A DNA stretch of 12,628 bases, from IMG/VR virus record IMGVR_UViG_2690316231_000010, positions 1-12,628 of that record. One strand, given 5' to 3'. Numbering within the stretch: the stretch's first letter is position 1; every line of letters starts with the position of its first letter. The notes beneath the pieces are model-generated. The model was not told the origin of the DNA and searched no databases. It saw only the letters and a list, made by a program, of their open reading frames with translations. Position numbers and translations under genes: made by a program. Source of the stretch: a virus. Its lineage: Duplodnaviria; Heunggongvirae; Uroviricota; Caudoviricetes. Positions 2,146 to 11,599 of this stretch are shown one piece after another.

Positions 2146-4223
<2,078 letters not shown>

Positions 4224-7466: not shown

Positions 7467-7551
7467 TTCTTAAGATTTCCAATAGTGAATAGTTAGTTGA
7501 AAGGTATGCGTGGAAACGCATATGGCCTTAGTTGGTCAGATATCTTGGGGC

Positions 7552-7600
7552 TCGCTTTTCAGCGACGTAGGACGAATGTCCGTTGTTACAAAGAGCGGCT
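7552..7600 (-). promoter_or_regulatory. nutR-like site: boxA (cgctcttt) plus boxB hairpin (tcgctgaaaagcga) downstream of cro
   Basis: On the minus strand: gccgCTCTTTgtaacaacgg...ctacgtCGCTgaaaaGCGa. The boxB stem-loop with GAAAA loop is shaped like lambda boxB and the same arrangement recurs upstream of N (nutL). A palindrome ccgcttattaagcgg spans the cro stop and a hairpin atgcgtggaaacgcat (7506-7521) follows, in the position of tR1. Confidence 0.5.
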
Positions 7601-7607
7601 CCGCTTA

Positions 7608-7823
7608 TTAAGCGGCTTTGTGCTCCGGCGGGAACACGTCATCAAGACTTACTTTTGCGCCTAACTTGTTTAGACACGCAACAAGAGCACGGCATGTTTT
7701 AAGGTCTGGGAAGCGACGACCAGATTCCCAATGTCCGATAGCTCCCTGTGTGCATCCAACTGCCTTAGCAAGTGTTGTTTGAGAGATATTCAGTGACTCT
7801 CGATATTTTCGTAGGTTGCTCAT
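7608..7823 (-). CDS. cro: Cro-like repressor, 71 aa (non-lambda specificity)
   Basis: Start MSNLRKYRESLNISQTTLAKAVGCTQGAIGHWESGRR with SD ggaggg; HTH; divergent from cI across the operator region. The ORF-track 128-aa version is an upstream extension. Confidence 0.8.
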   Translation of the reverse strand: MSNLRKYRESLNISQTTLAKAVGCTQGAIGHWESGRRFPDLKTCRALVACLNKLGAKVSLDDVFPPEHKAA

Positions 7824-7934: not shown

Positions 7935-8594
7935 ATGAAAATGAAATGGTATGAACTGGCTAGATCCAGAATGAAAGAGCTCGGCATAACTCAAGAGAAG
8001 TTAGCCGAAGAGCTAGGTATGACGCAGGGTGGAATTGGACACTGGTTGCGCGGATCTCGTCATCCATCTCTTAGTGATATTGGTGTGGTGTTTAAATACC
8101 TTGGTATTGATAACATATCATTCAACCACGACGGGACATTTTCACCTGTTGGCGAATACTCATCGGCCCCAGTTAAAAAACAATATGAGTACCCTGTTTT
8201 TTCTCATGTTCAGGCTGGGATGTTCTCTCCAGAACTCAGAACCTTTACCAAAGGCGATGCGGAGAGATTGGTAAGCACAACCAAAAAAGCCAGTGACTCT
8301 GCATTCTGGCTTGAGGTTGAAGGTAACTCAATGACCGCCCCAACAGGTTCCAAACCTAGTTTTCCTGACGGGATGTTAATTCTGGTTGACCCTGAGCAGG
8401 CTGTTGAGCCAGGTGATTTCTGCATAGCCAGACTTGGTGGTGATGAGTTTACCTTCAAGAAACTGATCAGGGATAGCGGTCAGGTGTTTCTACAGCCACT
8501 AAACCCGCAATATCCAATGATCCCATGCAATGAGAGTTGTTCCGTTGTGGGGAAAGTTATCGCTAGCCAGTGGCCAGAAGAGACGTTTGGGTAA
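7935..8594 (+). CDS. cI: cI repressor, chimeric: non-lambda N-terminal HTH domain fused to a lambda-type C-terminal domain
   Basis: Likely start MKMKWYEL... at 7935 with SD aagga (the ORF track starts at 7893). From about residue [21 protein letters not shown] (nt ~8184) to the C-terminus ...[12 protein letters not shown] it matches lambda cI as I recall it; the N-terminal [21 protein letters not shown] differs. Confidence 0.9.
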
Positions 8595-8766: not shown

Positions 8767-9063
8767 ATGAAAACCTTACGTTGCATGGCCTACCAGCAGA
8801 ACGGCGTTTACGTAGCTGCATGTTTAGACCTGTCATTGGCAGCGCAAGCAGATACTATGAAAGAAGCTGTAAACAAACTGGATGAGCAGATTAAAGATTT
8901 TTTCACTGAAGCGCTATCAGAGCCGGAATATGCAAAACAACTACTAAGTCGGAAAGCACCTTTATCTATGTGGCTTAAGTATTGGGTAATTGCATTTCAG
9001 GTTTTTGTCAGAAAACGAGGTGAAGCAAAACTCTTTGCTGAGCCTTGTGATGCTCATGCTTAG
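8767..9063 (+). CDS. HicB-like (DUF1902/UPF0150-type antitoxin fold) protein, 98 aa, in the rexA slot
   Basis: N-terminal motif NGVYVAACLDLSLAAQADTMKEAVNKLDEQI fits the GxYVAxxPDLPGxxxQGDTxEEAxxNxxEAI signature of HicB N-domains; strong SD gaggaga; hydrophobic C-terminal tail with no obvious RHH/HTH. Motif-based call, not a search. Confidence 0.5.
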   Translation: MKTLRCMAYQQNGVYVAACLDLSLAAQADTMKEAVNKLDEQIKDFFTEALSEPEYAKQLLSRKAPLSMWLKYWVIAFQVFVRKRGEAKLFAEPCDAHA

Positions 9064-9074
9064 GGTTACATTAC

Positions 9075-9359
9075 ATGTTCTTGAAAAAGCTTACTCCTTT
9101 GAAATACGACGAGGTAATCAGGGGACTTAAGAAAATGGGGTTTGAAATGAAACCTAAAACAGGAACCTCTCACGAACAGTGGGTTCTCAAGAACAGTAAA
9201 GGAAAATGGGTGGTTACAGTTGATAAGCATCACGCCCCATTCTCCAGAGATTTAATAAAATCCATGGCTAAGCAAGCTGGACTGAAAGCTCGTCACTTTC
9301 ATGCGTTATGCAGAGGTGACGCAACGCTTGAGGATATAGGATTCCAAATCATTAGCTAA
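9075..9359 (+). CDS. HicA/YcfA-like toxin-family protein, 94 aa, in the rexB slot
   Basis: Motif VIRGLKKMGFEMKPKTGTSHEQWVLKNSKGKWVVTVDKHHAPFSRDLIKSMAKQAGL fits the HicA signature (GF...GSH...vtv..H...l..i.kqaGL); begins 11 bp after the upstream ORF; followed by a strong terminator. Confidence 0.55.
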   Translation: MFLKKLTPLKYDEVIRGLKKMGFEMKPKTGTSHEQWVLKNSKGKWVVTVDKHHAPFSRDLIKSMAKQAGLKARHFHALCRGDATLEDIGFQIIS

Positions 9360-9389
9360 AACCCGGCCTCAGCGCCGGGTTTTCTTTGC
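9359..9389 (+). terminator. Rho-independent terminator after the two-gene cassette
   Basis: aaaacccggcctcagcgccgggttttctttg: 8-bp GC-rich stem (aacccggc/gccgggtt), 4-nt loop, T-run; also A-rich on the 5' side, so possibly bidirectional. Confidence 0.7.
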
Positions 9390-9572
9390 CTCACGCCCCC
9401 ACCTAAAGACACATAACCAAATGTATTTATTGAAAAATAAATAGATACAACTCACTAAACCACGCAATTCTGATCTCTCCTTACATCGCCGAGGCGATAC
9501 ACCCACGCTAAAAAACAACACTATTAAATACAAAGTGTTATAAAAAATCACTCCATTTTAGAACAAATCGTA

Positions 9573-9601
9573 TTGACCCAATAAAGTACATATCGTACTA
9601 T
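9573..9601 (+). promoter_or_regulatory. pL-like promoter (-35 TTGACC, 17-bp spacer, -10 TACTAT) with overlapping OL operator sites
   Basis: ttgacc (9573-9578), 17 bp, tactat (9596-9601), oriented toward N; operator-like sites atacaaagtgtta (9528-9540) and gtacatatcgtac (9586-9598) resemble the OR sites. Confidence 0.65.
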
Positions 9602-9646
9602 TTAACCGTCAGCAGGACGCTGGAAGCCAAACGGAACAGACTGGCA

Positions 9647-9693
9647 GGCTCTTTAAACAACGTCGAACTCTCGACTACGTGGCTGAAAAGCCA
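9647..9693 (+). promoter_or_regulatory. nutL-like site: boxA (gctcttta) plus boxB hairpin (tggctgaaaagcca)
   Basis: ggCTCTTTaaacaacg...ctacgtGGCTgaaaaGCCa parallels the nutR arrangement (shared aacaacg and ctacgt spacer motifs, GAAAA loop); lies between pL and N. Confidence 0.55.
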
Positions 9694-9791
9694 GATCACC
9701 CAACCACATGAGCTGTGGGATGCAATGCCGAAGCAACCGTCTCAGGAGGAGCTTCGAGATTGCATCGCCAAAGTTTATTCGGGAGGAATCT

Positions 9792-10114
9792 ATGTCCAGA
9801 AAAACAGAATTTAAAGGCACCGCAGCTTCTCGCCGTAGAGCTCGTCGCGCAAATCTGCAAAGTCAGAAGGCGATCAGCTCCGACAAGCTACACAGGCCAA
9901 CCCCTTCACGAGTGGTCTTGCAATGCAAGCGCAAACCAGCAATGAGAGCAGAAGTAATAACACTGACAACGCTGACCAGAAAATATGAAGGCTCAACTTG
10001 TCTTCCAAACGTAGCTCTTTACGCGGCAGGCTACCGGAAATCCAAACAACTGACAGCAAGATGACTTGTGTTGGTCGCCAGAAAATGAAATTAGGCAGCA
10101 AACCACTTATTTGA
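9792..10114 (+). pseudogene. N: N antiterminator homologue with an apparent -1 frameshift
   Basis: Start MSRKTEFKGTAASRRRARRANLQ (arginine-rich motif, SD gggagga) is in one frame and ends at the stop at 10062-10064; the conserved N C-terminus TCVGRQKMKLGSKPLI* (lambda ...TCSGRQKIKGKSIPLI) is in the +2 frame ending 10114. The span is 323 nt, one short of 324 (107 codons plus stop). Confidence 0.55.
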
Positions 10115-11362: not shown

Positions 11363-11434
11363 GTGCGGTTTTACCGCATACCAATAACGCTTCACTCGAG
11401 GCGTTTTTCGTTATGTATAAATAAGGAGCACACC

Positions 11435-11599
11435 ATGCAATATGCCATTGCAGGGTGGCCTGTTGCTGGCTGCCCTTCCGAATCTTTACTTGAACGAATC
11501 ACCCGTAAATTACGTGACGGATGGAAACGCCTTATCGATATACTTAATCAGCCAGGAGTCCCAAAGAATGGATCAAACACTTATGGCTATCCAGACTAA
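11435..11599 (+). CDS. cIII: cIII (lambda-type protease-inhibitor regulator), 54 aa
   Basis: [54 protein letters not shown] matches lambda cIII; SD aaggag. The ORF-track 78-aa version is an upstream extension. Confidence 0.9.
   Translation: MQYAIAGWPVAGCPSESLLERITRKLRDGWKRLIDILNQPGVPKNGSNTYGYPD

What the first reader, a model, noticed from the sequence alone, without database searches (positions are those of the whole stretch)
7552..7615. nutR and nutL share an atypical architecture with ~23-25-nt boxA-boxB spacing and conserved spacer motifs
Both nut-like sites carry boxA (gctcttt), an aacaacg motif, a ctacgt motif and a GAAAA-loop boxB hairpin, with a much longer boxA-boxB spacer than I recall for lambda. 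This points to an N/nut system of a different specificity class. Overlapping palindromes (agcgg/ccgct copies) span the cro stop codon. The paired nutL site is at 9647-9693.
Basis: partly seen in the sequence, partly recalled or inferred. Interest (0 to 1): 0.4.

Follow-up and report, generated by a model that had tools for sequence, protein, structure and literature searches.

The report
H-19B-type nut sites, tetraloop boxB
These are the two RNA sites where a prophage's N protein loads onto RNA polymerase; their long spacer holds an extra small hairpin already known from phage H-19B, and the only new detail is an N-binding hairpin whose loop is one base shorter and always matches its own N variant.

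Summary
Window 7552-7597 (- strand) and 9647-9693 (+ strand) are nutR and nutL of a lambdoid prophage. They share GCTCTTT, AACAACG, CTACGT and GCTGAAAAGC, with 23-24 nt between boxA and boxB (2 matches to the combined pattern, 0.00 expected).

The long spacer is not a new architecture. It holds a 4-5 bp hairpin flanked by ACAAC and UACG, as in phage H-19B, whose published nutR is near-identical. Across 33 distinct relatives, 4 of the 5 hairpin pairs show compensatory changes.

boxB is a 5-bp stem closed by U-A with a GAAA tetraloop, not a GAAAA pentaloop. H-19B has GACAA.

Loop type tracks the N arginine-rich motif without exception in 209 loci. RRR(A/E)(R/H)RA motifs go with GAAA or GCAA at both sites; RRRERLK goes with GACAA at both. 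This holds in natural chimeras and where both N classes share a cro 3' end, so a separate specificity class is well supported but not shown biochemically.

N (9792-10064, 90 aa) is intact and common. The palindrome over the cro stop belongs to one group of cro 3' ends, not to nut. Verdict: known kind, modest new variant.

The parts
7601..7615 (-). Palindrome CCGCUU-AAU-AAGCGG over the cro stop codon (TAA, 7610-7608). It comes with one group of cro 3' ends and is not a conserved part of nutR.
   Evidence: It is present only in nutR contexts with a cro 3' end like the window's and is absent from the other cro-end types.
7589..7597 (-). nutR boxA, CGCUCUUUG
   Evidence: Conserved as CGCUCUU(U/A) in most relatives. 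Compared with rrn boxA UGCUCUUUA and lambda boxA CGCUCUUA in PMC2724277.
7582..7588 (-). nutR 5' single-stranded spacer flank, UAACAAC
   Evidence: ACAAC is nearly invariant in alignment A2. The looser forms CCAAC, AAAAU and AAAAC occur in other nutR sites.
7570..7581 (-). nutR spacer hairpin ('reducer'), GGAC-AUUC-GUCC
   Evidence: Forms in the predicted minimum-energy fold. Compensatory changes across relatives. Identical to the hairpin in H-19B nutR.
7566..7569 (-). nutR 3' single-stranded spacer flank, UACG
   Evidence: Invariant in alignment A2. A few relatives have CACG.
7552..7565 (-). nutR boxB: UCGCU stem, GAAA tetraloop, AGCGA stem
   Evidence: Folds at -6.5 kcal/mol, z -3.6. Stem covariation. 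H-19B has GACAA at this position.
9573..9601 (+). pL-like promoter, TTGACC-17-TACTAT, about 40 nt upstream of nutL
   Evidence: a consensus match only.
9647..9655 (+). nutL boxA, GGCUCUUUA (rrn-like CUUUA form)
9656..9661 (+). nutL 5' single-stranded spacer flank, AACAAC
9662..9675 (+). nutL spacer hairpin ('reducer'), GUCGA-ACUC-UCGAC
   Evidence: Forms in the predicted fold. The loop varies in sequence and length (CUC, AUC, ACUC, ACAC, GCAC) among near-identical phages while the stem is kept. Covariation.
9676..9679 (+). nutL 3' single-stranded spacer flank, UACG
9680..9693 (+). nutL boxB: UGGCU stem, GAAA tetraloop, AGCCA stem
   Evidence: Folds at -7.1 kcal/mol, z -3.6..
9792..10064 (+). 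N gene, 90 aa, intact. Arginine-rich motif MSRKTEFKGTAASRRRARRANLQSQ.
   Evidence: Pfam PF25694 N_peptide, E 5.5e-32, model positions 5-100 of 100. 40% identical to H-19B N. 451 relatives in IMG/VR. GGAGG lies 6 nt before the ATG.
7608..7823 (-). cro (71 aa); nutR lies directly after its stop codon and before cII (7466-7167)

Best explanation
The two sites are the nutR and nutL RNA elements of an N-dependent antitermination system of the H-19B/HK97/933W lineage. Each transcript carries four parts in order.

1. A boxA (GCUCUUU[A/G]), the expected NusB/S10 site.
2. A spacer made of two short single-stranded stretches (ACAAC and UACG) around a 4-5 bp hairpin.
3. That hairpin is the 'reducer' described for H-19B. 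It takes 12-14 nt out of the linear path, so the single-stranded distance between boxA and boxB falls from 23-24 nt to about 10-11 nt. That is close to lambda's 8-9 nt.
4. A boxB hairpin of 5 bp closed by U-A with a true GNRA tetraloop (GAAA). The N-terminal arginine-rich motif of the 90-aa N protein binds it.

N bound at boxB, together with NusA on the spacer flanks and the other Nus factors, then makes RNA polymerase read through the terminators of the pL and pR operons.

This N/boxB pair is a separate recognition class from H-19B. Arginine-rich motifs of the form RRR(A/E)(R/H)RA...QS go with 4-nt GNRA loops. Motifs of the form RRRERLK go with the 5-nt GACAA loop.

What is shown here: positions, sequence conservation, both helices by covariation, homology to the experimentally studied H-19B nutR, and the co-variation between N motif and loop. 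What is inferred: actual binding, Nus-factor use, the distance-reducing role of the hairpin in this phage, and non-cross-reactivity of the two classes.
For: Position and chance. One site lies about 40 nt after a pL-like promoter and 98 nt before the N start codon. The other lies directly after the cro stop and before cII. The combined motif occurs twice, with 0.00 expected.

Homology. The window nutR and the roughly 75 nt downstream of it align almost base for base with H-19B nutR/tR1, taken from GenBank AF034975.3 and from the published antisense oligos RS662-665. H-19B nutR is described as having two hairpins, with N/NusA and Rho footprints on the spacer and boxB (PMC3526286).

Structure. 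In 33 distinct nut sites the spacer helix is paired in 93% of cells and 4 of its 5 pairs show changes on both sides. The boxB helix is paired in 98% and 3 of 5 pairs change on both sides. The covariation score is 0.574 against 0.126 in shuffles (0 of 500 reach it) and at most 0.071 when partners are slid. The spacer hairpin was not a selection criterion. In long transcripts both hairpins are in the minimum-energy fold.

Specificity. Among 209 loci where both sites were found, all 76 with RLK-type N have GACAA at both sites. All 133 with RRA-type N (27 distinct motif sequences) have GAAA or GCAA at both sites. There are no exceptions.

Natural chimeras follow the rule. An H-19B backbone with an RRA motif (P0046) has GAAA at both sites, which was predicted before it was looked up. 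A backbone otherwise found with tetraloop sites but carrying an RLK motif (L178) has GACAA at both sites. At least four types of cro 3' end occur with both N classes, and the nutR loop follows N, not cro.

GAAA and GCAA occur together in one phage, so the second loop base is free, as in a GNRA loop.
Against: There is no binding or antitermination assay for this N. The co-variation involves few independent lineages, about four to six recombination contexts. N and nutL are only about 100 nt apart, so those two are co-inherited anyway.

One locus (L049) combines this N and a GAAA nutL with a lambda-type nutR (GAAAA loop, short spacer). Either cross-recognition occurs or that prophage is defective.

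In short-context folds of the window sites, an alternative pairing of boxA with the 3' arm of boxB is slightly more stable. The values are -14.9 vs -12.8 kcal/mol for nutL and -11.9 vs -11.7 for nutR.

The 'reducer' experiments (Neely and Friedman 2000, PMID 11123680) could not be read here. I cite them from memory, and from their title as it appears in a reference list.
Confidence: 0.85

Rival explanations
1. The nut sites and architecture are as described, but the tetraloop/pentaloop difference is not a specificity barrier. Both N types would recognise any GNRA-like fold, and the observed match between N motif and loop would reflect shared ancestry and linkage rather than selection.
For: Lambda N recognises a GNRA fold formed by a pentaloop with one base extruded (Legault 1998, as summarised in PMC12027372). 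A tetraloop-binding motif could therefore tolerate pentaloops. L049 pairs this N with a lambda-type nutR. Few independent lineages are involved.
Against: nutR lies 2-3 kb from N, across the highly mosaic immunity region. The same cro 3' ends occur with both N classes, and the nutR loop still always follows N. Both reciprocal chimeras conform. There are 0 mismatches in 209 loci.
Confidence: 0.2
2. boxA and boxB form a mutually exclusive switch. boxA pairs with the loop and 3' arm of boxB, so that N binding to boxB would be needed to free boxA for NusB/S10, or the reverse.
For: In short contexts this pairing is the minimum-energy structure of both window sites. The first four bases of boxA equal the 5' arm of boxB in each site (GGCU in nutL, CGCU in nutR), which creates the competition.
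Against: The energy advantage is small (0.2-2.1 kcal/mol) and the z-scores are weak (-2.1 and -1.45). boxB is disrupted in the minimum-energy fold of only 11 of 33 distinct family members, and only some of those show this boxA pairing. In 156-193-nt transcripts the canonical two hairpins are predicted. Other nutL sites have UGCU, CGCU or AGCU with the same boxB, so there is no covariation. boxA is U-rich and the loop is A-rich, so some complementarity is expected.
Confidence: 0.07
3. The spacer hairpin is a sequence-specific binding or processing site of its own, for example for a nuclease or a second protein, rather than a passive distance reducer.
For: It is present at both sites in every relative examined, and its flanks ACAAC and UACG are highly conserved. 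Rho and NusA footprints fall on the H-19B spacer (PMC3526286).
Against: Stem sequences differ completely between nutL and nutR and between phages (GUCGA, GGUGA, GGAC, GAUUC, GGCGA). Loops vary in sequence and in length, from 3 to 6 nt. Only the pairing is conserved, which argues against sequence-specific recognition of the hairpin itself.
Confidence: 0.1

Closest known systems
Phage H-19B N / NUT system (Neely and Friedman 2000; used by the Sen laboratory, e.g. PMC3526286). The same N type is found in HK97, 933W, phi24B and Min27.
   Same: The order of parts is the same: boxA, ACAA(C/U), spacer hairpin, UACG, boxB. The nutR spacer hairpin is identical (GGAC AUUC GUCC), and the roughly 75 nt downstream (the tR1 region) is near-identical. 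N is homologous: 40% identity, the same Pfam family and the same C-terminal CLPNVALYAAGYRKSKQLTAR.
   Different: The boxB loop is GAAA (4 nt) rather than GACAA (5 nt). The arginine-rich motif is RRRARRANLQSQ rather than RRRERLKAKALANGVLAR, which makes it 7 residues shorter. N is 90 aa rather than 127 aa because a central segment is missing. boxA is consensus-like at both sites, whereas H-19B nutL has no recognisable boxA.
Phage lambda N / nutL, nutR
   Same: The genomic positions are the same: after pL and before N, and after cro and before cII. The tripartite boxA-spacer-boxB logic is the same. The boxB stem is 5 bp with a U-A closing pair, and the loop is G-first and A-rich.
   Different: Lambda has an 8-9 nt unstructured spacer (PMC2724277). 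Its loop is a GAAGA/GAAAA pentaloop that mimics a GNRA fold by extruding one base (PMC12027372). Here the loop is already a 4-nt GNRA loop, and the spacer is 23-24 nt with a hairpin. The N motif is unrelated in sequence and has no Trp.
Phage P22 gp24 (N) / boxB GCGCU GACAA AGCGC
   Same: The C-terminal part of N is related (P0058, P0070 and P0094). The boxB stem sequence is similar ((G/U)CGCU ... AGCG).
   Different: From my own knowledge, P22 uses a GACAA pentaloop and a GNAKTRRHERRRKLAIERD motif, with no spacer hairpin.
E. coli rrn antiterminator boxA (UGCUCUUUA-ACAAUUUA)
   Same: The window nutL reads GGCUCUUUA-AACAAC. This is the CUUUA consensus form of boxA followed by an ACAA-type spacer start, as in rrn (PMC2724277).
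   Different: rrn antitermination needs no N-binding boxB downstream of boxA.

Membership tests
Lambdoid N-utilisation (nut) site | Lies in the early leftward and rightward transcripts: nutL between pL and N, nutR between cro and cII | tested here: met
   Gene map. pL-like promoter at 9573-9601. Exactly one site on each strand, in the same relative positions, in most related loci.
Lambdoid N-utilisation (nut) site | boxA-like sequence (C/U)GCUCUU(U)A upstream of boxB | tested here: met
   CGCUCUUUG in nutR and GGCUCUUUA in nutL. The first base of the nutL boxA is G, which is non-consensus.
Lambdoid N-utilisation (nut) site | boxB stem-loop with a G-first, A-rich GNRA-like loop | tested here: met
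   A 5-bp stem with a GAAA loop at both sites. Stem covariation, including the closing pair.
Lambdoid N-utilisation (nut) site | A cognate N protein with an N-terminal arginine-rich motif is encoded next to nutL | tested here: met
   PF25694, E 5.5e-32, with the motif SRRRARRA.
Lambdoid N-utilisation (nut) site | N binds boxB and gives Nus-dependent readthrough of terminators | not testable with these tools
   This needs reporter or in vitro transcription assays.
H-19B-type NUT site (spacer 'reducer' hairpin) | Dyad symmetry in the spacer that forms a stem-loop between boxA and boxB | tested here: met
   Present at both window sites. 4 of 5 pairs show compensatory change across 33 distinct sites. 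H-19B nutR is described as having two hairpins (PMC3526286).
H-19B-type NUT site (spacer 'reducer' hairpin) | Sequence homology to H-19B nutR and nutL | tested here: met
   Alignments A3 and A4. The nutR core differs mainly by one loop base and in the boxA region.
H-19B-type NUT site (spacer 'reducer' hairpin) | N is homologous to H-19B N | tested here: met
   40% identity, E 2e-23.
H-19B-type NUT site (spacer 'reducer' hairpin) | boxB loop GACAA with an RRRERLK-type arginine-rich motif (the H-19B specificity) | tested here: not met
   The window has GAAA and RRRARRA. It is therefore the same architecture and lineage but not the same N/boxB specificity allele.
H-19B-type NUT site (spacer 'reducer' hairpin) | boxA, NusB and S10 are dispensable for N action (reported for H-19B; recalled from memory) | not testable with these tools
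   The window sites keep consensus-like boxA sequences. Some relatives lack boxA at nutL (L251 and the P0046 type).

The most novel reading that the evidence does not exclude
This very common E. coli prophage N (found in Stx2 phages 1717 and 2851 and in O55:H7/O157:H7 prophages) would define a further N-boxB recognition class. Its boxB is a true 4-nt GNRA tetraloop with no extruded base. A single-base insertion or deletion in the loop (GAAA versus GACAA), together with a swap of the C-terminal half of the arginine-rich motif, would switch specificity between it and the H-19B class. It would be a natural test of whether the extruded loop base of pentaloop boxBs is needed to assemble the N-NusA complex.
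Probability: 0.55. Interest if true: 0.45.

Novelty: new variant of a known kind. Interest (0 to 1): 0.33.

Why it matters
The long-spacer architecture is already explained, so the finding as written is mostly a rediscovery.

What is worth keeping is a clean natural data set for RNA-peptide recognition. Two related N proteins have boxB sites that differ by one loop nucleotide. All studied boxBs that I know of (lambda, P22, H-19B) use pentaloops that mimic a GNRA fold. This one is a real GNRA tetraloop.

It sits in prophages present in about 15% of complete E. coli genomes. These include Stx2-converting phages, in which N-dependent readthrough feeds into late gene and toxin expression.

RefSeq annotation also calls this N 'hypothetical protein' in the top-matching O55:H7/O157:H7 genomes, and the nut sites are not annotated in the two phage records checked (H-19B and 2851).

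Tried and rejected
- Rfam, all families, permissive threshold: nothing at either nut site. The only real hit in the window is the cIII thermoregulator.
- PDB sequence search with N: no hit even at E 10.
- Reading Neely and Friedman 2000 (PMID 11123680) and Chattopadhyay 1995 (PMC42102): neither is held. The 'reducer' experiments and the NusA role of loop bases therefore rest on memory plus the title in a reference list.
- Literature searches for a described tetraloop boxB, or for nut sites of phages 1717 or 2851: nothing found in the open library. This does not exclude subscription papers.
- First versions of my nut-finding scripts missed sites. One boxA pattern was too strict for nutL, and a greedy pattern swallowed tetraloops. 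Both were fixed.
- 'N is broken': rejected.
- 'The palindrome at the cro stop is part of nutR': rejected, because it occurs only with cro 3' ends like the window's.
- A boxA:boxB switch: kept only as a low-probability rival.
- A better boxA/boxB elsewhere in the leaders: none. The other four GCTCTTT matches (3962, 7974, 10014, 11139) do not carry the rest of the nut pattern, which matches only at the two sites.

Full report
**1. What is in the sequence**

The window is the immunity region of a lambdoid prophage. The genes are as follows:
- cI on the + strand (7941-8594; HTH plus Peptidase_S24).
- cro on the - strand (7823-7608).
- cII on the - strand (7466-7167).
- A hicA toxin gene (9075-9359) with a partner ORF (8767-9063), between cI and pL.
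- A 90-aa N gene on the + strand (9792-10064; Pfam N_peptide PF25694, E 5.5e-32).

The rightward operon therefore reads on the - strand and the leftward operon on the + strand.

In RNA sense:
- nutR = CGCUCUUUG UAACAAC GGAC-AUUC-GUCC UACG UCGCU-GAAA-AGCGA (7597 down to 7552).
- nutL = GGCUCUUUA AACAAC GUCGA-ACUC-UCGAC UACG UGGCU-GAAA-AGCCA (9647-9693).

A pattern combining the shared motifs matches only these two places, with 0.00 matches expected in shuffles. nutR begins a few bases after the cro stop codon. nutL lies about 40 nt after a pL-like promoter (TTGACC-17-TACTAT) and 98 nt before the N start codon. The boxA-to-boxB distance is 23 nt in nutR and 24 nt in nutL. In lambda it is 9 and 8 nt (sequences in PMC2724277).

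**2. Two corrections to the observation**

First, the boxB loop is GAAA, not GAAAA. The only register that gives a continuous stem is 5 bp closed by U-A around a 4-nt loop (-6.5 and -7.1 kcal/mol, z about -3.6). Relatives replace the closing U-A by C-G while keeping the GAAA or GACAA loop.

Second, the spacer is not unstructured. The G of 'aacaacG' and the first C of 'Ctacgt' close a small hairpin: 4 bp in nutR and 5 bp in nutL.

**3. The architecture is that of phage H-19B**

[quoted passage not shown] It is also found in GenBank AF034975.3.

The window nutR aligns with it almost base for base, through about 75 nt downstream, which is the nutR/tR1 region used in Rho/N studies. The differences are in and just after boxA, and one base in the loop (GACAA versus GAAA).

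[quoted passage not shown] From memory (the paper is not held), that study did the following:
- It named the spacer stem-loop the 'reducer'.
- It showed that breaking one arm inactivates the site, that compensatory changes restore it, and that deleting it has little effect.
- It proposed that the hairpin brings the flanking sites together.
- It reported that H-19B N does not need boxA, NusB or S10.

With the hairpin folded, the single-stranded path here is (U)AACAAC plus UACG, about 10-11 nt. That is close to lambda's 8-9 nt.

**4. Conservation and covariation**

I fetched 283 related loci through several N variants. Most loci carry one site on the N strand about 100-150 nt before N, and one on the opposite strand 1.2-3 kb away after cro.

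I aligned 33 distinct sites (A2). ACAAC and UACG are invariant or nearly so. The spacer helix is paired in 93% of cells, and 4 of its 5 pairs carry changes on both sides. The stems seen are GUCGA/UCGAC, GGUGA/UCACC, GGAC/GUCC, GAUUC/GAAUC and GGCGA/UUGCC.

The boxB helix is paired in 98% of cells, with 3 covarying pairs. The covariation score is 0.574, against 0.126 in shuffles (0 of 500 reach it) and at most 0.071 when partners are slid. boxB pairing was one of my selection criteria, so only the spacer-helix result is unbiased.

Among phages with near-identical N, the nutL spacer loop varies in sequence and length (CUC, AUC, ACUC, ACAC, GCAC) while the stem is kept. This means the pairing is conserved and the sequence is not. 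That fits a passive structural role and argues against sequence-specific recognition of the hairpin.

**5. A separate N/boxB class**

The N family shares a C-terminal CLPNVALYAAGYRKSKQLTAR segment but has modular N-terminal arginine-rich motifs: window type, H-19B type, phage 21 type, P22 type and others. The window N is 40% identical to H-19B N. Its arginine-rich motif is 7 residues shorter and it lacks a central segment.

Over 229 loci with a parsed motif:
- RLK-type N (RRRERLK, 3 distinct motif sequences): all 76 loci with both sites found have GACAA at both.
- RRA-type N (RRR[A/E][R/H]RA, 27 distinct motif sequences): all 133 loci with both sites found have a tetraloop at both. The split is 108 GAAA/GAAA, 19 GCAA/GCAA and 6 GAAA/GCAA.
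- No locus breaks the rule.

The GAAA/GCAA mix within one phage shows that the second loop base is free, as expected for GNRA.

Linkage alone does not explain the pattern, for three reasons:
- A chimeric N with an RRA motif on an H-19B-type body (P0046) was predicted to have tetraloops. It does, at both sites, inside otherwise H-19B-like nut sequences.
- The reciprocal chimera L178 has an RLK motif and carries the boxA and spacer hairpins of tetraloop-class sites. It has GACAA at both sites.
- At least four types of cro 3' end occur with both N classes, and the nutR loop always follows N, which lies 2-3 kb away across the mosaic immunity region.

A lambda-like motif on the same C-terminal body (L212) has a lambda-type nutL with a GAAAA loop and a short spacer.

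I therefore consider a distinct specificity class likely. This is still an inference from co-variation. One locus (L049) pairs this N with a lambda-type nutR, so cross-recognition or a defective prophage cannot be excluded.

**6.

N is not damaged. It spans positions 5-100 of the 100-position Pfam model. It has 451 relatives in IMG/VR, of which the 80 best are 97-100% identical over all 90 residues, and it belongs to large protein clusters. The nutL-N segment is in 759-859 of 5,426 complete E. coli genomes. It also occurs in Stx2 phages 1717, 2851 and YYZ-2008 and the PA series. The longer ORF starting at 9708 is in frame, but the ATG at 9792 has the GGAGG.

The palindrome CCGCUUAAUAAGCGG over the cro stop occurs only in nutR contexts with a cro 3' end like the window's. 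Other cro ends (for example ...GCAGCATAAGTAAC) have no such hairpin.

The 'better candidate elsewhere' test is negative. The other GCTCTTT matches do not carry the rest of the nut pattern, which matches only at the two sites.

**7. Alternative fold**

In 50-80-nt contexts the predicted minimum-energy fold of both window sites pairs boxA with the loop and 3' arm of boxB. This happens because the first four bases of boxA equal the 5' arm of boxB (GGCU in nutL, CGCU in nutR).

The advantage is 0.2-2.1 kcal/mol. boxB is disrupted in the minimum-energy fold of only 11 of 33 family members. The alternative disappears in 156-193-nt transcripts. I treat it as incidental, with low confidence.

**8. Comparison and novelty**

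The system works like lambda N/nut and belongs to the H-19B lineage and architecture. It fails one H-19B-specific feature, the GACAA loop with an RLK-type motif, so it is a different specificity allele.

I found no description of a natural tetraloop boxB, or of the nut sites of this N, in the searchable literature. Rfam has no family for nut sites. The two phage records checked (H-19B and 2851) do not annotate the nut sites.

The long spacer and its motifs are already known in kind. The tetraloop plus matching N motif is a modest new variant. Interest 0.33.

Noticed in passing
window 8767-9359 (+), terminator-like hairpin about 9361-9390: A hicA toxin gene (PF07927, 9075-9359), preceded by a 98-aa ORF with no Pfam hit (in the position of a hicB antitoxin), sits between cI and pL. 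Related phages carry other cargo there, such as sieB or an NYN-domain gene.
   Followed up: partly
window 11422-11480 (+): Full-length match to the lambda cIII thermoregulator RNA (Rfam RF01804, 88.5 bits, E 6e-21).
   Followed up: no
window about 9700-9775 (+): A long, stable hairpin in the N leader between nutL and the N ribosome-binding site (fold of 9608-9800: -68.8 kcal/mol, z -3.9). From memory, this is the same position as the RNase III-processed hairpin of the lambda N leader.
   Followed up: no
L049 (IMGVR_UViG_2531839234_000006), nutR near 1103 (-), nutL 3743-3776 (+): A natural hybrid: window-type N and a GAAA nutL, but a lambda-type nutR (CGCUCUUACACAUUCCAGCCCUGAAAAAGGGC, no spacer hairpin). 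Either this N tolerates the lambda boxB or the prophage cannot antiterminate rightward.
   Followed up: partly
L191-L193: Within one phage, nutL has a GAAA loop and nutR has GCAA. Most other phages have the same loop at both sites, including an N group whose first 36 residues are identical and which occurs with GCAA/GCAA (18 loci) or GAAA/GAAA (3 loci).
   Followed up: partly
E. coli RefSeq genomes, e.g. NC_013941.1 987759-988203: The nutL-N segment is present in 759-859 of 5,426 complete E. coli genomes. In the listed top hits the features under the match are annotated as 'hypothetical protein'.
   Followed up: no
window 7505-7523 (-): The hairpin AUAUGCGU-UUCC-ACGCAUAU downstream of nutR lies in a stretch that is near-identical to the H-19B nutR/tR1 region, which the Sen laboratory used as a Rho-dependent terminator.
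   Followed up: no
window 7594-7597 vs 7561-7564 (-); 9648-9651 vs 9681-9684 (+): In each site the first four bases of boxA repeat the 5' arm of that site's own boxB (CGCU in nutR, GGCU in nutL). The G that starts the nutL boxA is non-consensus and specific to this N group; a few relatives have U.
   Followed up: partly
L251; L277-L280; H-19B nutL (L275 about 3316-3375): Some family members have no recognisable boxA at nutL (GCAGUACCU or GGUGGUGAAUAU in its place) but keep ACAAC, the hairpin, UACG and boxB. As I recall it, boxA was reported to be dispensable in H-19B, which would fit.
   Followed up: no
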